Assembly (NCBI GenBank): GCA_963828465.1
Contig: CAWHEU010000022.1
Span: 4,577-68,576, forward strand
Length of the DNA: 64,000 nucleotides
Direction: 5' to 3'
Origin: an uncultured Acidobacteriota bacterium
Lineage (GTDB): Bacteria; Actinomycetota; Acidimicrobiia; Spongiisociales; ZC4RG35
Shown here: positions 4,046-46,928 of the stretch, piece by piece
Layout of the letters: each line of letters begins with the position of its first letter
How positions within the stretch are numbered: position 1 is the stretch's first letter
Made by a program: the position numbers and the translations under genes
The notes under the pieces: generated by a model
Seen by the model: the letters and a program-made list of their open reading frames with translations, nothing else
Told to the model about the DNA's origin: nothing
Database searches by the model: none

Positions 4046-8772
<4,727 letters not shown>

Positions 8773-8805
8773 CTGACGCGCCCGCGGACGAACCGAGGGA
8801 CCGGG

Positions 8806-9003
8806 TCAGCCCTCCTCGGGCATGATCACCCAGAGGACGATGTAGATGAGGACCTGGGGGCCGGGGAGAATCAGCGAGAGCACGAACAGGAGCCTCATCA
8901 CCCCGTGGCTCATTCCGAAACGGTCGGCCAGGCCCGCAGCAACCCCGGCAATCATCCGATCTTCCTTGGGCCTCACCAGTCGAGGCGTCTGACGATCAGT
9001 CAT
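8806..9003 (-). CDS. PspC-domain small membrane protein
   Basis: MIAGVAAGLADRFGMSHGVMRLLFVLSLIL matches the PspC domain core. One TM helix. Confidence 0.7.
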   Translation of the reverse strand: MTDRQTPRLVRPKEDRMIAGVAAGLADRFGMSHGVMRLLFVLSLILPGPQVLIYIVLWVIMPEEG

Positions 9004-9061
9004 CTTTCCACCCTATCGGAGTCCGATCCCCGGACCTCCCGGTCGCTAGCTTCCTGGCTCC

Positions 9062-19244: not shown

Positions 19245-20812
19245 ATGACCGGAAGCACATCGCTTTGGGGAACGACCTACTTCCTGGCGCTGTTCGCCGC
19301 GATACTGGCCCTTCCCACCAGCTGGTTTCTCTTCCGTCGCTACCGGCGGTCGATTCTTCGGCTGATGAACGAGCGCTCCTCTGGCGATCAGATGGCGGAG
19401 GACATTGGTCCGATCCCTGACCACCCCCGGCCCACGGCGTCACCGCACACCGACGTCATCGAGGCGGGGTTGCGACGGAACGTGATCGTGGTGGTCATCG
19501 TCGCACTCGTCTCCGCGTTCGCCTTCGCCGCGTTGTTCCTGGTCTGGAACGAAGTCGGCCTCTCGGTCTGGCGGCTCTCGACCTTCGGCATTCTCTACTC
19601 CTGGCCGGCGGTGATCGGAGTCTGGATCGTCACCGGCGGGCGGCGACGATGGGTCCTTACTTCCCTGGCCGTGTACTTCGTCTCTCTGGCTATCGCCGTG
19701 ACCGTCGCCGGCGGCTCATGGGACGTGCCGGCGCAGTTGTTCCTGTTCAGCCTGGTCCCCACCGCGGCGATCATCGGGTTCCTCTCCCGCCGCTTTCGCG
19801 GTGTGGGCGCTTTGGTGCTCGGCACGATGATGCTTGCCCTGGCCGGCTCTCAAGCCTTCGCTTTCACCGTTTTCGGTAACGAGGTCTTGATCACAGCTTG
19901 GGCCGAGATTCTCACTGCGCTCGGCGTCACCAGCGGCATGGTGGCGTGGTTGGCTCTGATTGGGGTGGGGTTCGTGTTGTCCCTCCTCCTCGGAGTCGTC
20001 GCAACCAGGCTGCTGGCTGGGTGGTACGCGCGATTTGGCTTCTCGGATCAGATGCTGCTCCTCGGCTCGACCTTCCTGGTCTTCGCCGTCGACCAATCCG
20101 GGTCGGCGAGCACGACGGAGGGAGGCCCCTTTGGAATAGGGCTGCTCATCTATGTCGCCGCCGCCGTGGTCGCCTTCGTTCTGTATCGCCTCATCCATCG
20201 CCGAGCCGGTGGACCCGTCAACTCTGCTGATGCTCAGGGTGTTCTCATCCGACCCCACACGCCAACGTCTGCTCGACCAGATCGCGTCCAAATGGCGGTA
20301 TCTCGGCCCGGTCATGATGATCGGAGGGCCTGACCTGGCCGTGAACAACGTCGAGCCGGATGAATTCCTCGCCTTCGTGAGCGGCCGGACGCGGCGACTC
20401 TTCGTCAGCGGCCCCGAAGATCTCGCCGAGAGGATTGCGGAGCCTCGAGATACGGACCGACCGGGACGCCCGCTACCGGATCGACGAGTTCTTCTGTTTC
20501 GACGACACGTGGCGTTCCACCGTGAGCGAGCTGCTCGCACATAGCGACGCCGTGGTCATGGACCTGCGTTCGTTTGGCCCCGAGAACCGGGGGTCGAGCC
20601 ACGAACTAGAGCTGCTCGCCTCACGAGGCGCATTGGGCCGGACCGTCCTTCTGGTGGACCAGAGCACCGATCGCGCCCTGCTCGACACGATCCTCGCTTC
20701 AGTGCCTGAGTCCAAGCCCCCACCGTTCTCGTGCGTCCACGACGACCAAGCCGATGAGGCGACGCTGGCCTGCCTGGCAGCAGTTGAGGACGCCGTTGCA
20801 AGTCACGGGTAG
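19245..20812 (+). CDS. polytopic membrane protein (~8 TM) with a cytoplasmic C-terminal domain of unknown function; two apparent frameshifts (~20205 and ~20460)
   Basis: Three consecutive ORFs (19245.., 20152.., 20435..) are in three different frames. Each carries protein-like sequence: TM helices, then TLLMLRVFSSDPTRQRLLDQIASKWRYLGPVMMIGGPDLA…, then RYRIDEFFCFDDTWRSTVSELLAHSDAVVMDLRSFG…. This suggests one gene broken by indels. Confidence 0.5.
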
Positions 20813-20892: not shown

Positions 20893-22398
20893 ATGACCGG
20901 CGCAATGTCGGCACCGAATCCGACATCGCGTCCCAGTGACGCTGTCTTCATCAGCTACACACACGTAGACAACAAGCCGTTCGGCCCCGAGAAGCAACGT
21001 TGGATATCGCTCCTCGACGAGCATCTGAGCGTTCGACTCGAGCAACTTGCACCAGAGCATCACGTGTCGGTGTGGCGGGACGACAAGCTCCAAGGCAACG
21101 ACGTGTTCTCCGAGTCGCTGAAGGAGCGACTGGGGGAGGTAGCAGTGTTGATTTCGGTGTGTTCGCCCAGGTACTTGGTCTCGGAGTGGTGTCAGAGAGA
21201 ACTCAATGAGTTCGTGCAGGCCCAGGCGAAGCGGGGGCTCGAAGTAGGGACGAAGAGTCGGGTATTCAAGGTGATGAAGACACCGGTGCCTCTAGACGAA
21301 CTCCCTCCTCCGCTCGCTCCGCTGTTGGGGTACGAGTTCTATGAGGTATTGCCGGAAGGCGACCACTTTCGAGAATTCCTTCTCAACCCGAATGAGGAGG
21401 CGCGATGGAAGTTCTACGCTCGAGCGGACGATCTCGCCCAGGACATCGCCGATCTGCTCGACGAGTTGGCCGATGAGGCCGTCCGCCCCGAACCGGTCAC
21501 CTCCAGCACCGTGTATCTAGCTGCGACCACATCGGATGTCTCGGAGGGCCGGGACGACCTCAAGCGGGAACTGCAGCGACGCGGCTTCCGGGTATTTCCC
21601 GATCGCGACCTGCCTTTCGTGGCAGACGACCTGTCAGCGGCCATCACTGGCTGGTTGTCCGAGTCGGACTTCTCGATCCATCTCCTCGGTGCCCGGTACG
21701 GCGCCAGGCCAGAGGGTGACGATCGGTCGATTCCCGACCTGCAACTGGAGCTTGCCCGAGGGTTCGCCAACCGACAGGTTCTGACTCAGCTCATCTGCAT
21801 CAACGACGGGCACGAGGTGGTTGAAGAAGAGCAGGTCGAACTCATCGAGAGAGTCGAGACGACGAACGTCGGCCGAGGAGTCGAAGTGGTGAAGGCTCCG
21901 TTCGATAGGTTCAAGGAACATGTCCTGGACACGATGTCTCGGAGCCCGCTGGCGACAAAAGTGGATACCGGAGCAGAGGGTAGGACCGTCTACCTCGCCT
22001 ACGACCGGGTAGACAGCGAGGCAGCTGAAGCGCTGCAGACCTTGATCGAGGATCGGGGGTACAACGTTTTGTCGCCACTCATGGAGGGATCCGAGTCTGA
22101 AGTGCGTGAAGTCCACGAAACATCGATGGTGCTGAGTGACGCAGTGCTGATCTACTACGGCAAATGCACTGAGCACTGGGTGCGAATGCGGCTCTTCGAT
22201 CTCATGAAAGTGCGCGGGTGGGGCAGAACTGAGCCTTACCTGGCTCAAGCCCTGTGGGTCGGTGCTCCCGACACGCCACACAAGGCGAAGGTGCACATCA
22301 CACAGACTCTGCTCCTGAACGGCATGGCCGATCCCGCGCTGACGGCACTCGAGCCATTCCTCGTACGTCTGGAAGGGCGCGACGCGAGCAACGGATGA
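20893..22398 (+). CDS. TIR-domain protein (N-terminal canonical TIR plus two further degenerate TIR-like modules)
   Basis: DAVFISYTHVDNK…WRDDKLQGNDVF…AVLISVCSPRYLVSEWCQRELNEF is a textbook bacterial TIR. Two later blocks beginning TVYLAATTSD… and RTVYLAYDRVDSEAAEALQ… repeat the fold signature. Stop overlaps the next start (ATGA at 22395). Confidence 0.8.
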   Translation: MTGAMSAPNPTSRPSDAVFISYTHVDNKPFGPEKQRWISLLDEHLSVRLEQLAPEHHVSVWRDDKLQGNDVFSESLKERLGEVAVLISVCSPRYLVSEWCQRELNEFVQAQAKRGLEVGTKSRVFKVMKTPVPLDELPPPLAPLLGYEFYEVLPEGDHFREFLLNPNEEARWKFYARADDLAQDIADLLDELADEAVRPEPVTSSTVYLAATTSDVSEGRDDLKRELQRRGFRVFPDRDLPFVADDLSAAITGWLSESDFSIHLLGARYGARPEGDDRSIPDLQLELARGFANRQVLTQLICINDGHEVVEEEQVELIERVETTNVGRGVEVVKAPFDRFKEHVLDTMSRSPLATKVDTGAEGRTVYLAYDRVDSEAAEALQTLIEDRGYNVLSPLMEGSESEVREVHETSMVLSDAVLIYYGKCTEHWVRMRLFDLMKVRGWGRTEPYLAQALWVGAPDTPHKAKVHITQTLLLNGMADPALTALEPFLVRLEGRDASNG

Positions 22399-25300
22399 CG
22401 GCTACGTCCCCACTATTCAATCCCTTCCCCGGTCTTCGGCCGTTTCGCGAGGACGAGACACCTCTCTTCTTCGGCCGAGATGCCCAGATCGACGAGCTCC
22501 TCGCCGAACTGGGTAGGTCCCGATTCGTAGCAGTCATGGGAGCCTCCGGAAGCGGTAAGTCGTCCCTGGTCACCGCAGGGCTTCTGCCCGCGCTCCAGGG
22601 TGGACTCTCACCGCGATTGGGGGCCAATTGGCGCATCGCCAGCTTGCGCCCCGGGGGCGACCCGGTGCGCAACCTGGCCAGGGCCCTCGTCGAACCCGGC
22701 GTCCTCGATCGAGACGGCTCCGATGAGACCAGAGGCGTCGATCAAACGGAGGCGTTGCTCAGACGAAGCGGTCTTGGTCTCGCCGATCTGGCAAGACGTG
22801 ACGAGAGCCTGAGAGACGGCCGCCTACTGGTCGTTGTCGACCAGTTCGAGGAGTTGTTCCGATTTCAGGACGCTGGGGGCAGGGCACACGACGGCGCGGA
22901 CAATCCGGCATTCGTCCGGCTCCTGATCGAGGCTGTCGCCGACGAATCCAACGTGAGTGTGATCTTGACCATGCGATCCGACTACTTGGGGGATTGTTCC
23001 CAGTTCGACCAGCTGCCCGAGACGATCAACCAAGGGCTCTATCTCGTTCCCCGGCTTACACGCACGCAGCTCCGCGGGGCGATCACCGGTCCAGTCGCCG
23101 TCGGGGGCGGAACGATTGCCCCTCGACTTGTGCAACGGCTCCTGAACGACGCCGGCGCGGATCCCGACCAGCTGCCCGTGTTGCAGCACGCCCTGATGAG
23201 GATCTGGGACCTGTGGACTGGGGACGTGACTGCTCCTGGGCCAATCGACCTCGAGCATTACGAGGCTGCCGGCGGACTCGAGGAGGCGCTCGCCCGGCAT
23301 GCCGACGAGGCATATGACGATCTGACCGACGATCGGAGCCGGCGGATCGCGGAGCTTGCCTTCAAGCGCCTCACTGAGCTCGGAAACGATGGTCGCGAGG
23401 GCCGTCACCCGGCCACGTTGGCCGAGATCGCCTCTGTTGCAGATGCCACGGTCGAAGAAACGCGCGAGGTGATCCGTCACTTCGAGCAGCCGGGAAGATC
23501 CTTCGTCATGGTGTCTGATGACGGAGTCGTCGACATCTCCCACGAAAGCCTCATTCGCCAATGGCCGAGACTCCGTGACTGGGTTGGCGAGGAGGCGGCC
23601 TCCCGAGACACGTATCACCGGCTGGCCGAGTCCGCCGGCCGATGGCGTCGAGGTGAGGCTGCTCTCATGCGAGATCCGGATCTGCAGCTAGCTGTGAACT
23701 GGTGGACGGACAACCAGCCGAGCGGTGCCTGGGCCGAGCGGTACGGCTCGACATTCCAGGACGCAGCCGACTACCTGGATCGGAGCCGCAAAGCCGAGAG
23801 AAGCCGGCGGCTTCTGACGTGGTCCGGTGTCGCAGGGCTGGGCGTCCTGGCAGTCCTGTTCGCGGTGTTGGCTGTATGGGCGATAACGGCAGAACAGGAC
23901 GCGAAGTATCAGGAACGTCTTGCTGTCGGAAGGCAACTCTCCGCGGTCTCGACCGAGCACGGACCGGAGCGTCGGACAACCAGCATCCTCACCGCATTGG
24001 AGGCTCTTCGGACTACCGAGACCGACGGACTGCGTCTCCCGGAGGCCGAGGAGGCACTGCGTGCTGCGATGCACGACCCGCTCGGCATCCGACTCCCCGG
24101 CCAGCCGGGTCAGCTCGGCCATGACGAGGATGTGACGACACTGGGTTTCAGTCCCGACGGGAGATGGTTGGCGACGGGTAGCGCTGACGACACGGTGTTG
24201 CTATGGGATCTGGAGGACACGGAAGGGGACCCGCGTCCGTTGCCCGGTCATGCCGACGACGTGGTGGCGTTGGCGTTCAGCCCCGACGCCCGTTGGTTGG
24301 CCACCGGCAGTCTCGACGGCACCGCCATGTTGTGGGACCTGGAAGATGCGGAAGCCAAGCCCCGGATCCTGGACGGCCATACAGATGAGGTGACATCACT
24401 TGCCTTCAGCCCCGATGGCAGCTGGCTTGCCACCGGGAGCGTCGACGAAACCATCCAGCTCCGTGAATTGGACAACCCGGATCTCGTGGCCCGTGTCCTC
24501 CAGAGCGAGGCGGGATTCATCCTCTGCCTGGCCTTCAGCCCTGACGAGAGGTGGCTGGCGGCCGGCACTGGCACCGGCGTCGGGTATCTGTGGGACATGG
24601 GGAATCCCGGCGGCGACCCCGAGACGCTCAGCGGTCACAACGATGCTGTGGTCGCTGTCGCTTTCAGCCGTGACGGTGCTTCGCTGGCCACCGGGAGCAG
24701 GGATGCGACGATCCGGCTATGGGACCCCGACGTTCCGACCAATCCGTTTGCCAGGCTGGAACAAGGCGACGCGGTGCTCGGCCTGGTGCTCAGCTCCGAC
24801 GGGAGATGGCTAGCCACCGGCGGTGAGGACAACGCCGCCCGTGTTTGGGACCTCCAGCGGTTGAGAGGATCCCCTGACCCGTCACTAGTCCTCGTGCACT
24901 CCGGCCCCGTGGAACGGGTCTCCTTCAGTGCTGACAACCGCTGGCTGGCCACCGGTGGTCCTGGTGACCCGGCTCGGCTCTTCCAGGTCAACGACGCGTC
25001 TCTGCCGCCCGTGGTGCTCGCCGGCCCGGTCACGGCCCTCGGGTTCAGCACCGACGACCGATGGCTGGCGATCGGATCGGATCAGGGCTCGGCTCGCCTT
25101 TGGGGGACGGACCAACTCCCAACACAACCGGCAGTGCTCGATCACGACGACAAGGTCTCAGCGATCGAATTTGGCCCGGACGGTCGTGTGGCCACGGGGA
25201 CCACAGCCAATGTCACGCGTCTGTGGAGTCTCGACGACCCTTCGGCTGAGCCCGAAGTGCTAGCGCAAACGGATTTCGGGTTCGATATGGCACAGGTGGA

Positions 25301-26141
25301 AGCGATCGCGTTCAGACCCGACGGACGTATGTTGGCCACCGGCAGCGGTGACATGCGGGTCCGGTTGTGGACGCTGGATCCTTCAGGGTCCCAACTCGTA
25401 TCCGAGGAGCCTCTCGAGGCTGGAATCAATGATCTGGCCTTTAGTGCGGACGGGGACCGGCTTGCTATCGCGGTGAAGGAAGAGGATGTCTTGCTGTGGG
25501 ATGTGGCGGAGCGGTCGTTCGAGCGTCTCGAGGGTCACAGTGCTGAGGTGCGGAGCGTGGCCTTCAGCCCGAACGGACGTTTGCTGGCCACTGGAGACCT
25601 GGACGGGGAGATCCGGGTCTGGAATCTCGAAGATCTGGAGGTTCCTCCGGAGTCTCTGCGCGCCCATGCCGAGCGGGTGACATCGTTGGCCTTCGACGGA
25701 GAGGGACGTCAGCTCGCGTCCGGGAGCTGGGATCAGACCGTCCAGATCTGGGAGGTCGACACGCGGAGCTACATCACGTTGAACACAGATGGTCGGGTCG
25801 ACAATGTAGCCCTTCGACCCGATGGGAAGTTGATTGCAGTGGCAGCCGATCAACCTCATTTATGGGATCTGACCGCCCCCGACCAGAACGACCCGATCGC
25901 CAATCCTGTCATTCTGCGGGACCACACCAGCGTCGTGAACGCGGTTGCATTCAGCGCGGACGGGAGATGGCTCGGTACCGGGAGTGACGATCACTCCGTT
26001 CGTCTCTGGCTCCAACTGGAGGAATTGGCAGAGCTCGGCTGTGCCAGCGCGGGACGGAACCTGAGTCACGACGAGGTGCAGGAAATCAATCCCGGCGCCA
26101 AGAGCGTTAGCACGTGCGAAGAATGGCCCGAGGGGTCTTAG
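22395..26141 (+). CDS. nSTAND-type P-loop NTPase (NACHT-like) with a central TM helix and ~15 C-terminal WD40 repeats
   Basis: PFPGLRPFREDETPLFFGRDAQIDELL…RFVAVMGASGSGKSSLVTAGLLP carries a Walker A motif. Walker B is LLVVVDQFEE. The hydrophobic segment LLTWSGVAGLGVLAVLFAVLAVWAI is a TM helix. Then ~15 repeats of the type GHxDxVxxLAFSPDGRWLATGSxDxTxxLWDL. Confidence 0.85.
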   Translation: MTATSPLFNPFPGLRPFREDETPLFFGRDAQIDELLAELGRSRFVAVMGASGSGKSSLVTAGLLPALQGGLSPRLGANWRIASLRPGGDPVRNLARALVEPGVLDRDGSDETRGVDQTEALLRRSGLGLADLARRDESLRDGRLLVVVDQFEELFRFQDAGGRAHDGADNPAFVRLLIEAVADESNVSVILTMRSDYLGDCSQFDQLPETINQGLYLVPRLTRTQLRGAITGPVAVGGGTIAPRLVQRLLNDAGADPDQLPVLQHALMRIWDLWTGDVTAPGPIDLEHYEAAGGLEEALARHADEAYDDLTDDRSRRIAELAFKRLTELGNDGREGRHPATLAEIASVADATVEETREVIRHFEQPGRSFVMVSDDGVVDISHESLIRQWPRLRDWVGEEAASRDTYHRLAESAGRWRRGEAALMRDPDLQLAVNWWTDNQPSGAWAERYGSTFQDAADYLDRSRKAERSRRLLTWSGVAGLGVLAVLFAVLAVWAITAEQDAKYQERLAVGRQLSAVSTEHGPERRTTSILTALEALRTTETDGLRLPEAEEALRAAMHDPLGIRLPGQPGQLGHDEDVTTLGFSPDGRWLATGSADDTVLLWDLEDTEGDPRPLPGHADDVVALAFSPDARWLATGSLDGTAMLWDLEDAEAKPRILDGHTDEVTSLAFSPDGSWLATGSVDETIQLRELDNPDLVARVLQSEAGFILCLAFSPDERWLAAGTGTGVGYLWDMGNPGGDPETLSGHNDAVVAVAFSRDGASLATGSRDATIRLWDPDVPTNPFARLEQGDAVLGLVLSSDGRWLATGGEDNAARVWDLQRLRGSPDPSLVLVHSGPVERVSFSADNRWLATGGPGDPARLFQVNDASLPPVVLAGPVTALGFSTDDRWLAIGSDQGSARLWGTDQLPTQPAVLDHDDKVSAIEFGPDGRVATGTTANVTRLWSLDDPSAEPEVLAQTDFGFDMAQVEAIAFRPDGRMLATGSGDMRVRLWTLDPSGSQLVSEEPLEAGINDLAFSADGDRLAIAVKEEDVLLWDVAERSFERLEGHSAEVRSVAFSPNGRLLATGDLDGEIRVWNLEDLEVPPESLRAHAERVTSLAFDGEGRQLASGSWDQTVQIWEVDTRSYITLNTDGRVDNVALRPDGKLIAVAADQPHLWDLTAPDQNDPIANPVILRDHTSVVNAVAFSADGRWLGTGSDDHSVRLWLQLEELAELGCASAGRNLSHDEVQEINPGAKSVSTCEEWPEGS
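24100..26010 (+). repeat. ~15 tandem WD40 repeat units (coding repeats) forming two beta-propellers
   Basis: The recurrent peptide AFSPDGRWLATGS…RLWDL is visible ~15 times, including the degenerate units at ~25142 and ~25860. Confidence 0.8.
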
Positions 26142-26151
26142 GCGCGGTCGC

Positions 26152-27213
26152 TCAGGACGGCGGGGGGGAGATCAGGGTCACTACTGCCAAGAACTCGCCG
26201 TCGTTGTTGGTGACGCCGATGTCGTTGATCCCGAGGTAGAGACGACCGTCGGATTCGACGGTCGTCTGGAACTCACTGCCCACTTCGAACGGGACCCCAT
26301 TCTCTCCGATTTTTCCGATGAGCCCGGCATGATTGGCATCCTCGACCCCGGGCAGATTGGATTCGTGTCCCGGAAGGTTGGGGTCACCATCAGGAGTGAG
26401 CAGCGGGCCGTTCTCGGAGTGCTTTATCCGGCCGCCGGCTTCGATGTCGAGTGTGACTCCCGTGACGACATCGATACCGGAGTCCGTCCACAACACCGTG
26501 CCGGGCACCCGGACAGTCTGAGTTTTCGATGGCTCGGCATCGCATGCCTGAAATCCACCGACAAACTCTCCAAGCGGCGGAGCATCCGGGTCCAGCCGCG
26601 CCTCCTCGAACCACGCATTGAATTCTTGGGTGGGAACGCATATCGCGGGCCCCGGGGCCTGGCCTTTGGTCAGAAACGCGGCCTCGGTATAGGTTCCCTC
26701 CCTTGCCTCGTAGGTCTGGGAAAGACCCTCGGAGGTGAGCTCGATCGACCCCTTCTTGACCACGACACACGTGTTCTCAGTCGGCGGCTGACAAGCCGTG
26801 AACACCGTGGCGGGCTCCAATGCCGTGATGGTCGAGCTCGACGTTTCCAGTGTCAGACGGGTGTCGCTCACTTCGTCGTCGGTGAAGGTGACATGACCGC
26901 CGCCGAGGTACGCCCTCGCTTCCGCCGGTTCCCAGCTCTCGAGTTGGATGGCCGCCTGCCTGGACAACTCGAATCTGCCCAGGTCTCGGATCGTGAGGAG
27001 CCCACTGGCGCCGGGCCCCAACGTGATCTGGTTTCCCAGATCGATCGATTCACCGTCCCCGGTGCCGATCTCGGTTTCGCTCACCGAAATAGGGCCCTTA
27101 TAGACAACCAGATCTGCCTGCATGGGCGGTGTGACTTCATCTCCTCCGCAGGCAGCTAAGGCGAGGGTGATGAGCGTGATAGCCAGTCCCCCCCGAGACT
27201 TCCGTCGCAACAT
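26152..27213 (-). CDS. secreted lipoprotein with a beta-rich C-terminal domain, function unknown
   Basis: MLRRKSRGGLAITLITLALAACGGDE gives a lipobox LAAC. The Gly/Thr/Asp-rich C-terminus looks like a beta-sandwich. The ORF extends to 27258. Confidence 0.65.
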   Translation of the reverse strand: MLRRKSRGGLAITLITLALAACGGDEVTPPMQADLVVYKGPISVSETEIGTGDGESIDLGNQITLGPGASGLLTIRDLGRFELSRQAAIQLESWEPAEARAYLGGGHVTFTDDEVSDTRLTLETSSSTITALEPATVFTACQPPTENTCVVVKKGSIELTSEGLSQTYEAREGTYTEAAFLTKGQAPGPAICVPTQEFNAWFEEARLDPDAPPLGEFVGGFQACDAEPSKTQTVRVPGTVLWTDSGIDVVTGVTLDIEAGGRIKHSENGPLLTPDGDPNLPGHESNLPGVEDANHAGLIGKIGENGVPFEVGSEFQTTVESDGRLYLGINDIGVTNNDGEFLAVVTLISPPPS

Positions 27214-27395
27214 GCTCCCTCCAGTCCGGTCAACTCTATCCGAGGTCTGGTGGCCCAACAGGGCGAGAACCGCATATGGGCCACCATCCCGAAAGGAGCG
27301 GGTTGGAGCGGCGCTGATACGAGGATCGGGCCGCCCACGACGGCCGTCTCCGGTTAGCCCAGCCGCGTAGGCTCGGCCGTCGAAAGGGGGACTCG

Positions 27396-28353: not shown

Positions 28354-29919
28354 ATGTCGTTCTTCGACTCGCCACTTGGTGAGCAGCTCCGCTCCAGCCT
28401 CGATGCGGGGAAACCAGAGGACATCGCCGCCGCGGTAGGGGTGGTCAAGGGGAAGGTGTGGTCGGGGACAGTGCAGCCCGATCAGGTCGACGAGGTCCTC
28501 GCAGAACTGCAGCGACAACGACAGGTTCAGCACGTCATCGACATCGCCGATGCGGCCACCGCGGTCGGCTCGATCACGACGTCGGGCCGTCGCCGCTACT
28601 GCCAGATGCTGATCGAGTCGGGAGCCCTCCATGCCGGCGAGCTCGCCTGCGCAGAGCTTCTCGATCTGGCCGAGGATGCGAAGGAGCGGGGGGAGGCACT
28701 GGGGCTGCTCGGGCGGATCCGCAAGCAGCGTTACGTGACCAGCCGCCGGCCCGAGGATTTGATCGGCGCAATTGCCGCCTATCAGTTCGCATACGCGGGA
28801 GGCGGCGACCCGCTCTGGCATGGCATCAATCTCCTCGCACTCACCACCCGGGCCCATCGTGACGGAATCCTCGTTCCCCAACCGGTCGACACGGACGCTC
28901 TGACACGCACGCTCCTCGACGTAGTCAGGCAGACGGCACCCGAGTTGCAAGAGATCTGGGAGCGCACCACCGAGGTCGAGGCCCTGGTCGCCCTGGGCGA
29001 CAAGGCGTCGGTGGACGAAGCGGTGTCGGTGGCACAGAAACTCGCCAGCAGCAAGAGTGTCCGGCCGTTTGAGCTGGAGAGCCTTCGCCGTCAGCTGGCC
29101 GACATCTGGGAACTCGAGCCGCATCACCCGGTGCTGGTGGCCATCGCAGCGCAGAAGCTCCAACTCGGGGCCAGGGCCCATGTCGAGCTGCCCGATTCCG
29201 CGGGCCAGTTGGAGAAGATCTTCGGGACGGCCCTGCCTGTGGGGTACAAGCACCTGATGAGGGGTCTCGAGTGCGCAGAATCGGTGGGAAAGATCACCGA
29301 CGCATCCGAAGAGCCGTGGGGCACGGGATTCCTCCTACGCGGGAATCTGATCCATCCCGACTTCGGCGATGGACTGGTGCTGGCTACCAACGCCCACGTC
29401 TGTAGTCCAGAGCCCGGAGTGGGCAAGCTGCTGCCGAGCGAGGCGAAGGCTGTCTTCGACGTGACCAAGTCGGTCGATGGGGAGCAACTCGTCCTCACCG
29501 GCTTCGAGTGCCTGTGGAGCTCACCACCCTCGGTATGCGATGTCACCATCCTTCGCTTCACCGGACCCGAGCCGGCGCTCAAAGGCCAGCTCGACGTCGC
29601 CGCGTTGCCCCAGCCAGTGACGGAGGGCGCATATGTCTATGTCATCGGCCATCCGGCGGGGGGTGGGATCAAGTTTTCGATCAGGGGCAACGACCTTCTC
29701 GCCTATGACGCCGACATGTTCAAAGTCCACTACACCGCCCCCACCGAAGGGGGCAGCTCCGGGAGCCCGGTCTTCAACCAGGCATGGCAGCTGATGGCTG
29801 TTCATCACGCTGGAGATTCGAAGATGCACCGACTGGACGACCCTTCCGCTACGTATCAGGCCAACGAGGGGATCACGATCAAGGGGATCAGAGAGGAGTA
29901 CTCCAAGAATGGAAAATGA
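28354..29919 (+). CDS. N-terminal alpha-helical (TPR-like) domain fused to a C-terminal trypsin-like serine protease
   Basis: Catalytic triad context: LATNAHV (His), YDAD (Asp), GGSSGSPVF (Ser) in the C-terminal ~220 aa. The N-terminal ~300 aa is helical. No signal peptide. Confidence 0.8.
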   Translation: MSFFDSPLGEQLRSSLDAGKPEDIAAAVGVVKGKVWSGTVQPDQVDEVLAELQRQRQVQHVIDIADAATAVGSITTSGRRRYCQMLIESGALHAGELACAELLDLAEDAKERGEALGLLGRIRKQRYVTSRRPEDLIGAIAAYQFAYAGGGDPLWHGINLLALTTRAHRDGILVPQPVDTDALTRTLLDVVRQTAPELQEIWERTTEVEALVALGDKASVDEAVSVAQKLASSKSVRPFELESLRRQLADIWELEPHHPVLVAIAAQKLQLGARAHVELPDSAGQLEKIFGTALPVGYKHLMRGLECAESVGKITDASEEPWGTGFLLRGNLIHPDFGDGLVLATNAHVCSPEPGVGKLLPSEAKAVFDVTKSVDGEQLVLTGFECLWSSPPSVCDVTILRFTGPEPALKGQLDVAALPQPVTEGAYVYVIGHPAGGGIKFSIRGNDLLAYDADMFKVHYTAPTEGGSSGSPVFNQAWQLMAVHHAGDSKMHRLDDPSATYQANEGITIKGIREEYSKNGK

Positions 29920-30721
29920 CGCAATCCCTCCGGAGTTCCTGGAGCCCGAGGGCGACGCCGAGCGCCAGGATCCCGACCTCGTCTTCGAGACGACGTCAGC
30001 GACACTACGGGGGCTGTGGAATGACTGGATGTGCAAACGAGGTGACGGGACTTTCGTCGACGTCGAATTCTTCGGCCGCCGGATCGGCGGAGTGCCGACC
30101 CCGGCGGTCGACGCCTATCGGGCGCTCGAGGTAGCCCTGCGCTCCGCCGGTTACAAGCCAGATTCGCGGTGGGCGTACAACTGCAGGCTCATCGAGGGGA
30201 CGGACAAGCCCTCGCTGCACTCGGCCGGGATCGCAGTTGACATCGACCCGGACGAGAACCCGTTCTCGAAGGGTGACCCCTTCGCCGGGAAGATGGGTCC
30301 CGACCATGTCGCCGCGGCGCTGGCCATTCGCAACAGCGCCGGCGCCCGGGTGTGGTCCTGGGGCGGGCATTGGAACAAGCCCGATCGGATGCACTTCCAG
30401 CTCGACAGGGGGCCTGCGGCGGTGGATGTGGATTGGCGAACCGTCCCCGGTGGTGGCCCCGAAAGCGCCAGTTCGGGGTCAATGGACGTGAAGGAGGAAG
30501 AGATGGTTCTGTCCAAGAGCATGAAAGGCCCAGCAGTGGAGCGGTTCCAGCAGTGCCTGCTCGATTGGAATGCCAAGGCGCTGCCGAAGGACGGAGCCGA
30601 TGGTGTTTTTGGGAGCGAGACCGTCGAATGGGTGGGGCGGTTCCAGGAGGCCCTTGGTCTGGAGAAGACCGGAGTGATCGACGGGGTGACCGCGGCCTTG
30701 CTGGTCGCCCACGGGAAGTAA
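29909..30721 (+). CDS. M15 family (VanY/D-Ala-D-Ala carboxypeptidase-like) zinc peptidase with a C-terminal peptidoglycan-binding (PG_binding_1) domain; no signal peptide
   Basis: SLHSAGIAVDID (H…D zinc ligands) and GGHWNKPDRMHFQ (His). C-terminal GPAVERFQQCLLDWN…DGVFGSETVEWVGRFQEALGL matches the PG-binding fold. 11-nt overlap with the upstream stop. Confidence 0.8.
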   Translation: MENDAIPPEFLEPEGDAERQDPDLVFETTSATLRGLWNDWMCKRGDGTFVDVEFFGRRIGGVPTPAVDAYRALEVALRSAGYKPDSRWAYNCRLIEGTDKPSLHSAGIAVDIDPDENPFSKGDPFAGKMGPDHVAAALAIRNSAGARVWSWGGHWNKPDRMHFQLDRGPAAVDVDWRTVPGGGPESASSGSMDVKEEEMVLSKSMKGPAVERFQQCLLDWNAKALPKDGADGVFGSETVEWVGRFQEALGLEKTGVIDGVTAALLVAHGK

Positions 30722-30727
30722 CAAGCC

Positions 30728-32245
30728 ATCAAGGTCTTCCTGAGCTACCGGCGGGACGACACGGCGGGGCGCGCCGGAAGGCTCCACGACGCCCTGGCCT
30801 CGAGTTTCGGCACCCGCAACGTGTTCATGGACGTTTCCGCCATCGCGGTCGGCACCGACTTCGTCGACCAGGTGGAACGAGCGATCTCGACGAGCGACGC
30901 CTCGCTGGTGGTGATGGGGCCGAATTGGCTCGGGGCCACTGACCCCGAAGGCCGTCGGCGGCTCGACGATCCCCAGGACCACGTGAGGTCTGAGGTGCGC
31001 TCCGCGCTGGCCTCACCCAACCCGGTGGTTCCGGTGCTGGTCGGGGATGCATCGTTGCCGACCGAGGACCAACTGCCTGACGATCTGAAAGCCCTGGCGC
31101 GCCGACAAGCCGTGGAATTGCGGGACGAGACATGGTCTGAAGATGTCGAGATGCTGGTCCGGCGTCTCGAAGGCAAGGAGACGGTCCGGGAACCCCGCCG
31201 CTGGATTCTGCTGGCCATTGGCTTGATACTCCTGGGTGGCGTCGGCGCCGCTATCTGGATGGCTCAGGCAGGCGGCGAGGATGAGTTGACCCAATGCTCG
31301 GTGCCGGACGAGACATGGACCACGATCGACGTGGAACCCGGCGCCACGGACGTCGAACAATTGGAGCGGGATCGGGCACTCCGCTACACGGTGGTGAGTA
31401 CGGATTTCAGGGATGAACCCGGGGACGAGTGGTACGTCGTGCTCCATGTGAGGCTGGAGAACGAGTCCACGGACGTGGCGGGAAACGACGACCACACCGG
31501 GTACGGACCGTCGATCTTCGACGCCCTGCACGTCGATGAGATCTCGGTCGGGGGCCCTTACTGCTTTGGCGAGAACAGTGGTGACAGCGATCTCGCCCCG
31601 GGGGAGGCGGCCAACGCACGGGTTGGATTCCTCTCCGTACCTGGACCCCACCGAGGCAAGTCTGATGCTCGAGACCGATGGGCCCCTCTTTATCGAGATC
31701 ACCCCGGGCGCGTGATGCCGACGGTCCTGTTCTCGGGCCACATGGTCGATGCACCAGACCGGCCGTCTCCACGCTTCCCACCCGAGCGTGTTCCCCTGGT
31801 GCGGCGGGCGATCGCGGAAGCCGTCTGGCTCATCGATGACACCGACGCGGAGGCGATCTCGGGACTCGCCTGCGGGGGCGATCTCCTCTTCGCCGAGGAA
31901 TGGCTGAAGACCGGGCGGCCCTTGCACGCCTATCTGCCACGTGAAGAGGCGGATTTTCTCGACGAGTCGGTTCGTTTTGCCGGCTCGGAGTGGGTGGACT
32001 CGTTCCGTGAAGTGACCGCTGATCCGAACCTGGTCCTGATCGGTCCGGACCAAGAGATGCTTGGTTTGAACGAACCGCACACCGCGAACAACCTCCGCAT
32101 GCTCGAAGCTGCGTTGCTGCGGCCCGGCGCCCTCAACGGTCTGTTCCTTTGGGACGGCAAGGGAGGCGACGGTCCGGGAGGCACCGAGCACCTGGCCTCT
32201 GAGGTGGTCGAGCAGGGCGGGAGTGTCACCGTTCTCCGTCCGTAG
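30728..32245 (+). CDS. TIR domain – TM helix – C-terminal Rossmann-like (LOG/SLOG-like) domain protein; non-canonical start (ATC where ATG is expected)
   Basis: (I/M)KVFLSYRRDDTAGRAGRLHDALASSFGTRNVFMDVSAIAVGTDF…ASLVVMGPNWL is a canonical TIR. TM helix RRWILLAIGLILLGGVGAAIWMA. The C-terminus has ISGLACGGDLLFAEEWL … LFLWDGKGGDGPGGTEHL, reminiscent of LOG/SLOG Rossmann domains. The reading frame is open only from the TAA of the upstream gene (30719-30721). The first in-frame ATG (30830) lies inside the TIR domain. Confidence 0.65.
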   Translation: MKVFLSYRRDDTAGRAGRLHDALASSFGTRNVFMDVSAIAVGTDFVDQVERAISTSDASLVVMGPNWLGATDPEGRRRLDDPQDHVRSEVRSALASPNPVVPVLVGDASLPTEDQLPDDLKALARRQAVELRDETWSEDVEMLVRRLEGKETVREPRRWILLAIGLILLGGVGAAIWMAQAGGEDELTQCSVPDETWTTIDVEPGATDVEQLERDRALRYTVVSTDFRDEPGDEWYVVLHVRLENESTDVAGNDDHTGYGPSIFDALHVDEISVGGPYCFGENSGDSDLAPGEAANARVGFLSVPGPHRGKSDARDRWAPLYRDHPGRVMPTVLFSGHMVDAPDRPSPRFPPERVPLVRRAIAEAVWLIDDTDAEAISGLACGGDLLFAEEWLKTGRPLHAYLPREEADFLDESVRFAGSEWVDSFREVTADPNLVLIGPDQEMLGLNEPHTANNLRMLEAALLRPGALNGLFLWDGKGGDGPGGTEHLASEVVEQGGSVTVLRP

Positions 32246-46700: not shown

Positions 46701-46928
46701 ACAGAGCCCGAAGGTGCTGCGGAGTTGCTTGATGCGGCCGGGTCGCTTCGGGATCATGCCGGGGCCAAGGCGACACCTCGTGAAGCGGCGCAGGTGGCAG
46801 CCATATCAGGCTCGCTTGGGCAGGTTCTCGCCTCCGAGGGCCTCGAGGCGGCAGCGAAGATGGGTCAAGCAGATGCGGTCGCCGCAGCCGGACGGATCAT
46901 CTCGATGATCGAGACCGGAAATCAATAG
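43707..46928 (+). CDS. class III adenylate cyclase – NB-ARC/AAA ATPase – TPR STAND-family protein (paralog 2, intact, 1073 aa)
   Basis: GLVTFVLTDIEGSTRLF…GDSLLIAF (cyclase). VTVVGPGGVGKTRLA (P-loop). LLVLDNCEHLL (Walker B). Long TPR C-terminus. GTG start. Confidence 0.9.
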   Translation: MLPSGLVTFVLTDIEGSTRLFRELGDEYPRLLADHYELLRAAVTGHGGAEVGTEGDSLLIAFPDAAEAVAACLEGQLALSAHVWPLGVKVQVRMGVHTGEATPVDGNYVALPLHQVARISAGAHGGQILVSQTTATNIEGRLPPGTHLAALGSFQLRGFATPEPLYQLRHPDLQDDFPPLRAIGVLAHNLPFRRASFVGRAQDRATLAGMLGTTGLVTVVGPGGVGKTRLALQVAFDVLDEFDDGVWLVELAPLADPVSVPRAVASAMGIAEVPGQSTEEALTSALGGKAALLVLDNCEHLLDAVAGLAQMLSERCPNLVILSTSREPLDIDGEVVWRVEPLLTLDPDQTVGIAELKASDAVQLFTERAASVRPGFELTEDNAGDVARIVFHLSGMPLAIELAAAALADRSLSGVLSGLEDRFSLLVRGRRTAPTRHQTLRAAIEWSLDLLEPSERLLFDRLSVFAGSGTNAAAGEVCAGGAVEGSEVSEIMGRLVRASLVSIESESPDRWTMLESIRELGVLELAESGGTEEFSRRHRTWAVGRVEAVEDRIGRKGQEAVLAELADERDNIRRAIENALSAHDTEIGLRICTAMTRYWTSHGDWTEGSEQLGNVLALSGGDPGLRGRALVALGSLLQLRGELEEADKRFGEARELATATGDDVNLARALLYAGYVAFRHSHLSEAQGLWEEALARARSGGDQRVEASVLRSLAIVAGTEGRQDLAGELLDQAIGLAQASGDDQLLRLLLGSSAEMNIWLGRYQVAERAYGDALSLAAEIGDFSARPLLLAELGWVAILRGDPLTAQRLSIEAVEFAEDLGTPRVLTHALRLGGEAMMRLGDLAAASETLDRALAVAESLNAPAELAGVRCSQACLALELQDWELARVHAGEAIETSGLAHTMRRTTPQWVLGMVSLLEGDLGSAGRQFQEALAAAVERGALRHEATFSLGLAAVNTAQGRTTEAASLCRRALDLWQSLGDPLGVVECLVVLAQLAATTEPEGAAELLDAAGSLRDHAGAKATPREAAQVAAISGSLGQVLASEGLEAAAKMGQADAVAAAGRIISMIETGNQ

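What the first reader, a model, noticed from the sequence alone, without database searches (positions are those of the whole stretch)
23800..23900. Predicted TM helix in the middle of the STAND–WD40 protein
RSRRLLTWSGVAGLGVLAVLFAVLAVWAITAEQ lies between the NTPase module and the WD40 propellers. That would put the NTPase and the WD40 sensor on opposite sides of the membrane, or anchor the protein. Either is atypical for cytosolic NLR-like proteins and implies surveillance at the envelope.
Basis: seen in the sequence. Interest (0 to 1): 0.5.

Follow-up and report, generated by a model that had tools for sequence, protein, structure and literature searches.

The report
Membrane-spanning STAND–WD40 receptor with TIR partner
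The hydrophobic stretch is a real membrane-spanning helix found in almost every relative of this protein, which most likely makes it a receptor with its ATPase inside the cell and its WD40 sensor outside, always encoded next to a TIR-type NAD-degrading partner.

Summary
Residues 474-500 of the 1249-aa protein (window 22392..26141) are a 27-residue charge-free, non-amphipathic segment between an nSTAND1 NTPase and 15 WD40 repeats.

It is not a quirk of this gene. A hydrophobic helix sits at the same junction in 96.6% of 323 homologs from many phyla, against 0-3.9% in control windows. Only its hydrophobicity and a preceding Arg-rich motif are conserved.

Flank charges (K+R about 6.0 on the N side, 2.9-3.5 on the C side) predict NTPase inside and C-terminus outside. 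In homologs the post-helix module is sometimes a domain type that is normally extracytoplasmic (CAP, dCache_1 between two TM helices, CHASE2, ARC6-IMS, Lcl_C). The few relatives without a helix carry cytosolic domains (SpoIIE, CHAT).

The gene is the second of a conserved two-gene operon. A 500-aa TIR+DUF4062 protein lies directly upstream in 75 of 82 genomic loci, and is fused to the NTPase in one relative.

The feature is typical of this clade, not atypical. I found no description of this operon in the searched literature and no PADLOC match, so I rate it a new variant of a known kind.

The parts
20893..22398 (+). Partner gene, 501 aa, with three alpha/beta modules. (1) TIR_2, aa 18-118 (nt 20944-21246), with the catalytic-type Glu E103 in the motif SEWCQRELNEF. 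(2) A DUF4062-like module, aa 207-285 (nt 21511-21747). (3) A third module, aa ~358-501 (nt 21964-22395), weakly similar to the second. Its stop codon overlaps the receptor gene's ATG by 7 nt.
   Evidence: Pfam TIR_2 scores 56.8 bits (cut-off 28). DUF4062 scores 24.5 bits (cut-off 24.7). Among 44 orthologs, TIR_2 matches 44 and DUF4062 matches 42; E103 is >=90% conserved. hhalign of module 2 against module 3 gives E 2.8e-4. An ortholog lies directly upstream on the same strand in 75 of 82 loci.
22392..26141 (+). Receptor gene, 1249 aa: nSTAND1 NTPase, single TM helix, helical stalk, 15 WD40 repeats. The start is taken as ATG 22392, not the upstream GTG 22254 of the raw ORF, because homologs begin within a few residues of this Met.
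22422..23654 (+). nSTAND1 STAND NTPase module (aa 11-421). Walker A is G50-S58 (GASGSGKSS). Walker B is VVVDQFEE (D150, E153/E154).
   Evidence: Pfam PF20703 scores 343.6 bits (cut-off 27.1). The motif residues are invariant in a 96-sequence alignment. The AF2 model has mean pLDDT 90.9 and gives Foldseek hits to Cdc6/ORC, Apaf-1, CED-4, NRC3 and Avs4.
23766..23810 (+). Basic juxtamembrane motif ADYLDRSRKAERSRR (aa 459-473), with 6 K/R. Predicted to sit on the cytoplasmic face.
   Evidence: Mean K+R in the 15-aa N-flank of homologs is 6.0, against 2.9-3.5 in the C-flank. The N-flank has more in 96/106 and 113/134. The residue just before the core is R in 265 of 314 and K in 45.
23811..23891 (+). 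Predicted transmembrane helix core LLTWSGVAGLGVLAVLFAVLAVWAITA (aa 474-500).
23754..23960 (+). One continuous predicted alpha-helix (aa 455-523) running from the end of the NTPase module through the TM core into the stalk.
   Evidence: AF2 with a 96-sequence alignment: helix H455-523, with 10-residue block pLDDT of 86-98 over aa 451-520 and 76 for aa 521-530. The single-sequence model gave the same long helix at low confidence.
23892..24119 (+). Post-membrane stalk and linker (aa 501-576): the rest of the long helix, two short helices, then a disordered linker at aa 563-573.
24120..26021 (+). WD40 region (aa ~577-1210). I count 15 repeats by eye from the recurring 'xxAFSPDGRWLATGSxDxTxxLWD' unit, enough for two propellers. 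Predicted to be extracytoplasmic.
   Evidence: Pfam WD40 scores 370 bits over 11 scored stretches, and many beta-propeller families also match. Repeat count read from the sequence.
26022..26138 (+). C-terminal tail (aa 1211-1249). It holds two of the protein's four cysteines (LGCASAG...STCEEW).
   Evidence: Read from the sequence. No function was tested.
28354..29919 (+). Neighbour; membership of the system is uncertain. TPR-S plus a trypsin-like peptidase.
   Evidence: Pfam TPR-S E 2.1e-12 and Trypsin_2 E 2.9e-15. TPR-S is also the commonest family among neighbours of the operon elsewhere (6 of 78).
30821..32245 (+). Neighbour; membership of the system is uncertain. A second TIR protein with its own single hydrophobic helix (aa ~129-147 of the listed ORF) and a ~320-aa C-terminal part.
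   Evidence: Pfam TIR_2 E 1.2e-7. KD19 of 2.42 at aa 129. It is not a paralog of the 501-aa partner.

Best explanation
The segment is a genuine single-pass transmembrane helix. It is the constant hallmark of a very large clade of nSTAND1 NTPases.

Predicted orientation: the NTPase module (aa 1-470), ending in an Arg-rich motif, is cytoplasmic. The stalk and the 15 WD40 repeats are outside the cytoplasmic membrane. In this probably Acidimicrobiales-like monoderm that means the cell-wall zone; in diderm relatives it means the periplasm.

The protein is the second product of a conserved, probably translationally coupled two-gene operon. The first product is a cytosolic TIR + DUF4062 protein, both modules being NADase-type folds.

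Proposed mechanism (inferred, not shown):
- A ligand or an envelope perturbation is bound by the external repeat domain.
- This clusters or re-orients the receptors. The change passes through the continuous helix 455-523.
- The cytoplasmic NTPase modules then undergo nucleotide-dependent oligomerisation.
- The oligomer recruits or activates the TIR/DUF4062 partner, which consumes NAD+ or makes an NAD-derived signal.

The membrane separates the sensor from the NTPase. The usual NLR/Apaf-1 autoinhibition, in which the sensor packs on the NTPase, is therefore not possible. Activation would have to resemble ligand-induced clustering of TLRs or receptor kinases.

What is shown: the helix, its conservation, the charge bias, the operon, the domain repertoire. 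What is inferred: topology, direction of signalling, NADase output, immune role.
For: 1. Helix properties: KD19 of 2.67, Hessa sum of -2.3, hydrophobic moment about 0, 27-residue charge-free core. Shuffle p is about 0.002.

2. Conservation of hydrophobicity but not sequence: 106 of 114 evaluated top hits, where most of the 8 misses are truncated or sub-threshold; 82 of 82 genome loci from Actinomycetota, Acidobacteriota, Cyanobacteria, Bacteroidota, Verrucomicrobiota, Planctomycetota and Proteobacteria; 134 of 141 representatives of 50%-identity clusters. Overall 96.6% against 0-3.9% in control windows. Median charge-free core is 23 aa. There is no further TM in 81 of 81 loci.

3. Positive-inside bias: K+R of 6.0 (N-flank) against 2.9 and 3.5 (C-flank). 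The N-flank has more in 96/106 and 113/134.

4. Homologs carry, at the post-helix position, domain types that are normally extracytoplasmic: CAP, dCache_1 flanked by a second TM, ARC6-like IMS, Lcl_C, Peptidase_M74, Trypsin_2, and CHASE2. Relatives without a helix carry cytosolic SpoIIE or CHAT.

5. The AF2 model (pLDDT 90.9) shows a single 69-residue helix through the segment.

6. Operon: the TIR/DUF4062 ortholog is immediately upstream on the same strand in 75 of 82 loci, with a median HSP gap of 57 nt. In the window the two genes overlap by 7 nt. The fusion protein P0228 is partner + nSTAND1 + CHAT.

7. Partner protein: TIR_2 in 44/44 orthologs, DUF4062 in 42/44, catalytic-type Glu E103 >=90% conserved. 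Its profile matches plant TIR NADases and Cat1. DUF4062 is reported as a TIR-like NADase in 2026 preprints.
Against: - No topology predictor or experiment was available. The orientation rests on charge bias and on analogy with domains in homologs.
- The C-flank is still fairly basic, about 3 K/R per 15 aa.
- WD40 (54 of 82 loci) and TPR (15 of the 27 other loci scanned) are the classical cytosolic STAND sensors. The protein would have to export 690 aa here, and up to about 2000 aa in relatives.
- Cysteine parity in the post-helix regions shows only a weak excess of even counts (130 even, 99 odd, 65 none).
- Neighbourhoods of the operon in other genomes are heterogeneous, with hardly any known defence genes. 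PADLOC has no matching system. An immune role is therefore inferred from domain types alone.
- Some post-helix modules are enzymes (trypsin, M74 peptidase). These fit an outward effector better than a sensor.
- DUF4062 in the window protein scores 0.2 bits below Pfam's cut-off.
Confidence: 0.6

Rival explanations
1. Inside-out system. The helix is a true TM span with the same topology, but the trigger is sensed in the cytoplasm by the NTPase and/or the TIR-DUF4062 partner. The external module is an output or anchor, for example scaffolding or attacking the cell wall, or holding the complex at a particular envelope site.
For: Some homologs carry enzymes after the helix: Trypsin_2, Peptidase_M74 and CAP. 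Cell-wall enzymes with PG_binding_1 sit near the operon both in the window (29909..30721) and in L002. The partner protein has three TIR-like modules, any of which might sense something.
Against: Most post-helix modules are binding repeats: WD40 in 54 of 82 loci and TPR in 15 of the 27 others scanned. Others are classical extracytoplasmic sensor domains, dCache_1 and CHASE2. In characterised STANDs the C-terminal repeat region is the sensor (established for Apaf-1, NLRs and Avs).
Confidence: 0.15
2. Anchor only. The hydrophobic segment tethers the protein to the cytoplasmic face, as an in-plane or re-entrant helix, so both the NTPase and the WD40 region stay in the cytoplasm and work like an ordinary cytosolic NLR-like sensor held at the membrane.
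For: WD40 and TPR sensors are normally cytosolic in STAND proteins. Exporting very large repeat domains is costly. The C-flank keeps about 3 K/R per 15 aa.
Against: The core has a median of 23 charge-free residues, is charge-flanked on both sides and has no amphipathicity. That is too short for a hairpin and too hydrophobic for an in-plane helix. AF2 predicts one straight 69-residue helix. The N/C charge asymmetry is strong. Homologs place Cache, CHASE2, CAP and ARC6-IMS domains after the helix. Relatives with cytosolic enzymes at that position lack the helix.
Confidence: 0.1
3. The helix is itself an effector. On NTPase oligomerisation the clustered TM helices perturb or permeabilise the membrane, with the TIR partner as a second effector.
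For: Membrane-disrupting TM effectors are common in abortive-infection systems (established knowledge). STAND oligomerisation would bring many helices together. There is no direct evidence from this work.
Against: The helix sequence is not conserved and has no polar or Gly-rich face. A dedicated enzymatic effector gene is conserved next door. The helix is central, between two large domains, not a terminal effector module.
Confidence: 0.05
4. Not a membrane segment at all. It is a buried hydrophobic helix in a soluble oligomer, or a chance hydrophobic run.
For: No experimental data exist for any member of this clade.
Against: Hydrophobic moment is about 0.06 and shuffle p about 0.002. Hydrophobicity is conserved in 96.6% of homologs while the sequence is free to vary. 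There is a positive-inside bias. In the AF2 secondary-structure read-out it is part of one continuous 69-residue helix running away from the NTPase module.
Confidence: 0.03

Closest known systems
nSTAND1 NTPases (Pfam PF20703; defined by Kaur, Iyer, Burroughs & Aravind 2021, PMC8195603)
   Same: The NTPase module is a full-length, high-scoring member (343.6 bits). As in the described systems, it is linked to TIR-type effectors and to variable C-terminal modules.
   Different: The defining paper describes nSTAND1 with FGS/C-type-lectin sensors, effector-associated adaptor domains (EADs) and diversity-generating retroelements. In the text I read it mentions neither a TM helix after the domain nor the TIR+DUF4062 upstream gene. 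Doré et al. 2024 list nSTAND1 and TM among their target-protein domain labels, but predict the targets of DGR 1 and 6 (DGR 6's carry nSTAND1) to be cytoplasmic.
Apaf-1 and the animal DUF4062-NACHT-WD40 proteins (TEP1, NWD1)
   Same: A STAND NTPase followed by tandem WD40 propellers (15 repeats here, by my count). It is associated with a TIR-like DUF4062 module, which is reported to be an NADase in TEP1. Foldseek finds Apaf-1, Dark and CED-4.
   Different: Those proteins are soluble, and in Apaf-1 the WD40 domains fold back onto the NTPase. Here a membrane lies between the two, the NTPase is nSTAND1 rather than NB-ARC or NACHT, and the TIR/DUF4062 module is a separate polypeptide.
Avs and bNACHT antiviral STAND proteins of bacteria
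   Same: The three-part logic of effector, STAND NTPase and C-terminal repeat sensor, with TIR and DUF4062 used as NADase effectors. [quoted passage not shown]
   Different: Characterised Avs and bNACHT proteins are cytosolic, have a fused N-terminal effector and sense phage proteins inside the cell. The TM class of bNACHT has multiple TM regions and is uncharacterised. This protein has exactly one helix between the NTPase and the sensor, has its effector in trans, and matches no PADLOC model.
Toll-like receptors (analogy only)
   Same: An external repeat domain, a single-pass helix and cytoplasmic TIR signalling.
   Different: There is no homology of the ectodomain (WD40 here, LRR in TLRs). 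The polarity is reversed (N-in here). An NTPase sits between the helix and the TIR. The TIR is on a separate protein.
Actinobacterial receptor Ser/Thr kinases such as PknD (kinase - TM - beta-propeller) and PknB (from my own knowledge, not tested here)
   Same: The same bitopic N-in/C-out layout: a large cytoplasmic enzymatic module first, one TM helix, then an exported propeller or repeat sensor. This shows the layout is feasible in Actinomycetota.
   Different: The cytoplasmic module is a kinase rather than a STAND NTPase, the propeller type is different (NHL), and there is no TIR partner.

Membership tests
nSTAND1 STAND NTPase (PF20703) | Match to the family HMM above the curated threshold, over the full model | tested here: met
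   343.6 bits against a cut-off of 27.1; model positions 1-374 of 379; aa 11-421
nSTAND1 STAND NTPase (PF20703) | P-loop Walker A (GxxxxGK[ST]) and Walker B (hhhhD, then acidic residues) | tested here: met
   GASGSGKSS (G50-S58) and VVVDQFEE (D150, E153, E154). These residues are invariant in the 96-sequence alignment.
nSTAND1 STAND NTPase (PF20703) | STAND-type fold: NTPase core plus helical and winged-helix modules | tested here: met
   AF2 model with pLDDT 90.9. Foldseek probability 1.0 to Cdc6/ORC, Apaf-1, CED-4, NRC3 and Avs4, but with low TM-scores of 0.2-0.33.
WD40 beta-propeller | Multiple WD40 repeats above the Pfam threshold | tested here: met
   PF00400 scores 370 bits over 11 scored stretches. 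I count 15 repeat units by eye in the sequence.
Bitopic (single-pass) membrane protein, N-in/C-out | One hydrophobic stretch of about 20 or more residues with favourable insertion energy, and no others | tested here: met
   KD19 of 2.67, Hessa sum of -2.3, 27-aa charge-free core. The next best window in the protein reaches only 1.48.
Bitopic (single-pass) membrane protein, N-in/C-out | The segment is conserved in hydrophobicity across homologs | tested here: met
   96.6% of 323 homologs against 0-3.9% in control windows; 82 of 82 genome loci
Bitopic (single-pass) membrane protein, N-in/C-out | Positive-inside charge bias | tested here: met
   K+R is 6 (N-flank) against 3 (C-flank) in the window protein. 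Family means are 6.0 against 2.9-3.5.
Bitopic (single-pass) membrane protein, N-in/C-out | Call by a dedicated topology predictor (TMHMM, DeepTMHMM, TOPCONS) | not testable with these tools
   No such predictor was available. Only hydropathy scales coded by hand were used.
Bitopic (single-pass) membrane protein, N-in/C-out | Experimental membrane localisation and an exported C-terminus | not testable with these tools
   Needs PhoA/GFP fusions, cell fractionation or protease accessibility.
TIR-domain NADase effector (partner gene 20893..22398) | TIR HMM match above threshold, and the catalytic glutamate | tested here: met
   TIR_2 scores 56.8 bits against 28. E103 in SEWCQRELNEF is >=90% conserved in 44 orthologs. 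The profile hits RUN1, L6, RPV1 and Cat1 TIR domains. Enzyme activity was not tested.
DUF4062 / NIR TIR-like NADase (partner gene) | DUF4062 HMM match above threshold | tested here: inconclusive
   The window protein scores 24.5 bits against a cut-off of 24.7. 42 of 44 orthologs match at E <= 0.01, the best at 8.7e-10. I did not map the catalytic residue.
Avs / known anti-phage STAND systems (PADLOC) | Match to a system model; N-terminal effector fused to the NTPase | tested here: not met
   PADLOC gives only a WD40-driven HEAT-ARM hit and a P-loop hit, and no system model for either protein. The NTPase starts at aa 11 with no fused effector.
Thoeris | ThsB-type TIR together with ThsA or another Thoeris partner | tested here: not met
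   NCBIfam ThcB4 scores 22.9 bits against a cut-off of 220, and FxsC_Nterm scores 52 against 130. No Thoeris partner gene is present.
Tat-dependent signal anchor | Twin-arginine consensus directly before the hydrophobic core, conserved in the family | tested here: inconclusive
   The window protein has SRRLL before the core. RR occurs within 6 residues of the core in only 197 of 314 homologs, and many Bacteroidota members have KxR instead.

The most novel reading that the evidence does not exclude
A very large class of bacterial immune or surveillance receptors (more than 13,000 50%-identity clusters at E <= 1e-30, which counts all nSTAND1 relatives and not only helix-bearing ones) has, as far as I could find, not been described as such. 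Its members are single-pass transmembrane STAND NTPases. They would read extracytoplasmic cues (phage adsorption or ejection machinery, cell-wall damage, or non-self cells) with exported WD40, TPR, Cache or CAP ectodomains. They would then switch on a cytosolic TIR-DUF4062 NADase through ligand-induced clustering. That would be a prokaryotic design combining TLR-like topology with an NLR-like engine, in which the usual contact between sensor and NTPase for autoinhibition is impossible.
Probability: 0.35. Interest if true: 0.85.

Novelty: new variant of a known kind. Interest (0 to 1): 0.6.

Why it matters
All characterised bacterial STAND/NLR-like sensors (Avs, bNACHT) and their animal and plant relatives detect ligands inside the cell, and hold the NTPase in check by direct contact with the sensor. 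This clade would be different in two ways if the predicted topology is right. It would show that bacteria also use STAND engines as transmembrane receptors looking outward. It would also need a different activation principle, clustering through one helix rather than release of an intramolecular lock.

The clade is constant in architecture across at least seven phyla: NTPase, one TM helix, a variable ectodomain, and a TIR+DUF4062 partner. The partner combines two NADase-type folds, one of which was shown to be enzymatically active only in 2026 preprints.

The system is directly testable. The operon has two genes. One homolog comes from a MAG labelled Enterobacteriaceae (L032), so it may be expressible in E. 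coli. Topology reporters, NAD+ read-outs and point mutants are all standard methods.

Tried and rejected
- Single-sequence AlphaFold2 of aa 344-720 gave a poor model (pLDDT 61). I replaced it with an MSA-based run.
- An exact-sequence look-up of the window protein found no record. The source organism is therefore only inferred, from the best genome hit: an Acidimicrobiales MAG at 63% identity.
- PADLOC gave no system match. NCBIfam gave only sub-threshold hits.
- Cysteine parity as a test for export: 130 even, 99 odd and 65 none in post-helix regions, against 145 even and 149 odd in the NTPase part. This is too weak to use.
- The twin-arginine (Tat) idea: an RR motif is frequent but not general. 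I did not adopt it.
- Looking for a conserved third gene or a defence-island context around the operon in 78 neighbouring ORFs gave a heterogeneous picture: TPR-S in 6, cyclase in 5, cNMP-binding in 4, TIR in 2, McrBC in 1. None of the other window neighbours recurs in the 82 loci, apart from a lipoprotein in one close relative.
- The second TIR gene of the window (30821..32245) is not a paralog of the partner gene.
- Literature: five full-text searches and seven papers read. I found no description of this operon or of a TM helix as a constant of nSTAND1. No supplementary files were held for the 2026 Nature STAND survey, so I cannot exclude that this clade is listed there.
- I could not inspect model coordinates. 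Whether helix 455-523 is solvent-exposed is therefore judged only from the secondary-structure string.
Full report

Yes. The window encodes a long + strand ORF from 22254 to 26141. Homolog N-termini place the start at ATG 22392. That ATG overlaps the stop of the upstream gene (20893..22398) by 7 nt. The product is 1249 aa.

Pfam places nSTAND1 at aa 11-421 (E 2.8e-102) and WD40 repeats at aa ~577-1210 (E 1.5e-114). The segment therefore lies exactly between the two modules.

Its properties:
- The best 19-residue window (aa 480-498) has a Kyte-Doolittle mean of 2.67, 5 SD above the protein's mean. The next best window in the protein reaches only 1.48.
- The summed Hessa free energy is -2.3 kcal/mol, and the helical hydrophobic moment is about 0.06, so the segment is not amphipathic.
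- The D/E/K/R-free core is 27 residues, aa 474-500.
- Only 45 of 20,000 composition-preserving shuffles reach this hydrophobicity anywhere in the protein.

**2. Do homologs keep it?**

- A search with aa 1-570 found 5592 relatives.
- Among the best 120, 114 extended far enough past the domain to be evaluated. 106 of those have a window with KD19 >= 1.6 just after the nSTAND1 domain. Most of the 8 misses are truncated or have a weaker segment below threshold.
- In 82 genomic loci, 80 of them from the species-representative genome collection, the score is 82 of 82. The phyla are Actinomycetota, Acidobacteriota, Cyanobacteria, Bacteroidota, Verrucomicrobiota, Planctomycetota and Proteobacteria.
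- Among representatives of 50%-identity clusters it is 134 of 141.
- Pooled, 96.6% of 323 proteins have such a window in the 125 aa after the domain (median KD19 2.39). Three control windows of equal size give 0-3.9%.
- The sequence of the segment is not conserved. Only its hydrophobicity, its length (median charge-free core 23 aa) and a preceding Arg-rich motif are. That is how a lipid-facing anchor behaves, not a packed helix.
- 81 of 81 loci have no further TM, so the protein is single-pass.
- The family is very large: 13,137 cluster representatives at E <= 1e-30 and 48,406 at E <= 1e-3. These numbers count all nSTAND1 relatives, not only those with the helix.

**3. Which way does it face?**

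Four lines of evidence point to N-in/C-out.

- *Charge bias.* The 15-residue N-flank carries 6 K/R in the window protein and the C-flank carries 3. Family means are 6.0 against 2.9 (N-flank greater in 96 of 106) and 6.0 against 3.5 (113 of 134). This positive-inside bias puts the NTPase in the cytoplasm. That is also where it needs to be for nucleotide, and where a TIR partner needs to be for NAD+.
- *Domains at the same position in homologs.* Some carry domain types that are normally extracytoplasmic (my assignment from established knowledge of these families). These are CAP (P0103), dCache_1 lying between the constant helix and a second helix (P0063), the ARC6-like intermembrane-space domain (P0012), Lcl_C (P0007), Peptidase_M74 (P0045) and Trypsin_2 (P0024). 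Two relatives have the order nSTAND1 - TIR - CHASE2.
- *Relatives without a helix.* The few that truly lack it carry cytosolic modules instead: SpoIIE phosphatase (P0013), CHAT (P0228) or a second nSTAND1 (P0162).
- *Structure prediction.* An MSA-based AlphaFold2 model of aa 1-620 (mean pLDDT 90.9) shows one continuous helix, aa 455-523, running through the segment. Two short helices and a disordered linker follow, and then the first WD40 strands.

A single straight span of 23-27 residues cannot leave both large domains on the same side of the membrane.

The weak points are these:
- No dedicated predictor or experiment was available.
- The C-flank is still moderately basic.
- WD40 and TPR are the usual cytosolic STAND sensors.
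- Cysteine parity gives only a faint hint of export.

**4. What surrounds it?**

The upstream gene (501 aa) has a TIR_2 domain (56.8 bits), a DUF4062-like module (24.5 bits, just under the 24.7 cut-off) and a third alpha/beta module weakly similar to the second.

- Its ortholog lies immediately upstream on the same strand in 75 of 82 loci. Three of the seven exceptions have no upstream sequence available.
- In 44 orthologs, TIR_2 matches 44 and DUF4062 matches 42. The catalytic-type Glu (E103, motif SEWCxRELxEF) is >=90% conserved.
- The family profile finds plant TIR NADases (RUN1, L6, RPV1) and Cat1 among solved structures.
- One relative, P0228, is a fusion of the whole partner protein (33% identity over 500 aa), nSTAND1 and CHAT. 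This restores the classical order of effector, NTPase, C-terminal module.

The real unit is therefore a conserved two-gene operon: TIR+DUF4062, then nSTAND1 - TM - variable ectodomain. The ectodomain is WD40 in 54 of 82 loci and TPR in 15 of the 27 others scanned.

Beyond these two genes nothing is universal. TPR-S proteins are the commonest neighbours (6 of 78; one is in the window at 28354..29919), and known defence genes are rare. PADLOC has no model for the pair.

**5. How it most likely works**

*Shown:* a cytoplasm-side STAND NTPase with intact Walker motifs, one TM helix, an external repeat domain predicted from the evidence above, and an obligatory TIR/DUF4062 neighbour.

*Inferred:* binding of an external ligand, or an envelope perturbation, clusters or re-orients the receptors through the long helix. 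The NTPase modules oligomerise. The oligomer recruits or activates the TIR/DUF4062 protein, which depletes NAD+ or makes an NAD-derived signal. DUF4062 is reported as a TIR-like NADase in two 2026 preprints.

The membrane separates the sensor from the NTPase, so the Apaf-1/NLR mode of autoinhibition cannot apply. The logic is closer to TLRs or receptor kinases.

*Rivals:* inside-out signalling with the ectodomain as output (about 0.15), a cytoplasmic-face anchor only (about 0.1), the helix as a membrane-perturbing effector (about 0.05), and not a membrane segment at all (about 0.03).

**6. Comparison with what is known**

The NTPase is a clear member of Pfam nSTAND1. The paper that defined nSTAND1 describes it with FGS lectin sensors, effector-associated adaptor domains and diversity-generating retroelements. 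It mentions neither the helix nor this operon.

Doré et al. list nSTAND1 and TM among their target-protein domain labels, but predict the targets of DGR 1 and 6 (DGR 6's carry nSTAND1) to be cytoplasmic. [quoted passage not shown] 2020 note TM segments in iSTAND systems. So the general idea of membrane-associated bacterial STANDs already exists.

What I did not find described is this specific layout, constant across phyla, with its TIR+DUF4062 partner. The closest soluble analogues are Apaf-1 and the animal DUF4062-NACHT-WD40 proteins TEP1 and NWD1.

I rate it a new variant of a known kind. The caveat is that the supplementary tables of the 2026 STAND survey could not be read.

**7. Verdict**

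- Observation: confirmed.
- Interpretation: partly supported. The opposite-sides reading is well supported by sequence evidence. 'Atypical' is wrong for this clade, where the helix is the rule. 'Envelope surveillance' is plausible but unproven.
- Interest: 0.6.

Noticed in passing
window 30821..32245 (+); the true start is probably near 30730: A second TIR protein in the same gene cluster also has a single strong hydrophobic helix (RRWILLAIGLILLGGVGAAIWMA, KD19 2.42 at aa ~129), followed by about 320 aa with no Pfam match. The layout is therefore TIR - TM - unknown domain. The reading frame upstream of the listed GTG continues with 'KVFLSYRRDD', a typical start of a TIR domain, so the listed ORF is probably truncated at its 5' end. 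It is not a paralog of the 501-aa partner.
   Followed up: partly
window 28354..29919 (+) and 29909..30721 (+): Downstream on the same strand, with the two genes overlapping each other, are a TPR-S + Trypsin_2 protein and a Peptidase_M15_4 + PG_binding_1 cell-wall enzyme. TPR-S is also the commonest family among neighbours of the operon in other genomes (6 of 78). L002 has a CHAP + PG_binding_1 gene, an astacin and further TIR genes near its operon.
   Followed up: partly
window 26152..27258 (-): Immediately downstream, and convergent, is a 368-aa ORF with a lipoprotein-type signal (LAITLITLALAACGGDE) and no Pfam match. A 34%-identical homolog sits in the same position and orientation next to the operon in L001 (about 9902-10882). 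It was not found in the other loci.
   Followed up: partly
proteins P0228, P0196, P0212: These are architectural variants of the clade. P0228 is a fusion of the whole TIR/DUF4062 partner, nSTAND1 and CHAT, with no TM helix. P0196 and P0212 have the order nSTAND1 - TIR_2 - CHASE2, with several TM helices.
   Followed up: yes
alignment A2 (post-helix regions of 27 homologs without WD40, e.g. L005:7540-10572): The consensus right after the TM helix reads 'AxxxxxxA' repeated about 14 times. This strict 7-residue alanine periodicity over about 100 residues suggests a coiled-coil stalk outside the membrane in the TPR-type members. The window protein has a much shorter stalk.
   Followed up: no
window 43707..46928 (+) and 60629..63277 (-): The same 64-kb window holds two more STAND-type genes: Guanylate_cyc + NB-ARC + TPR (1073 aa) and NB-ARC + TPR (882 aa).
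   Followed up: no
L001 6001-8616 / 8796-9905 and L002 3575-5983 / 6020-7183: In the two closest metagenomic relatives, the WD40 region is split into a second gene (369 and 387 aa) just after a shorter receptor gene (871 and 802 aa). This could be a real split or an assembly frameshift.
   Followed up: no
window 19245..20333 (+) and 20435..20812 (+): Upstream of the operon lie a 362-aa multi-pass membrane protein (KD19 up to 3.07; only a weak DUF4229 hit) and a 125-aa ORF with no Pfam match. Neither has a counterpart in the 82 related loci.
   Followed up: partly
window 23790..23810 (aa 467-473, ERSRRLL before the helix): The basic motif resembles a twin-arginine signal (S-R-R-x-L-L). RR lies within 6 residues of the core in 197 of 314 homologs, and R outnumbers K by about 3 to 1 in the N-flank. 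If real, Tat-type export of a pre-folded propeller would be an interesting possibility, but many Bacteroidota members lack RR.
   Followed up: partly
Cytophagales-type loci, e.g. L028:1149-4361, L031:1155-4355, L041:1145-4381: In many Bacteroidota loci a ~1065-aa ORF is conserved directly upstream of the operon on the same strand, and a ~450-aa ORF lies downstream. TonB-dependent receptor and Plug domains were hit 4 times in the neighbour scan. They may correspond to the upstream ORF, but I did not check which ORFs gave those hits.
   Followed up: no
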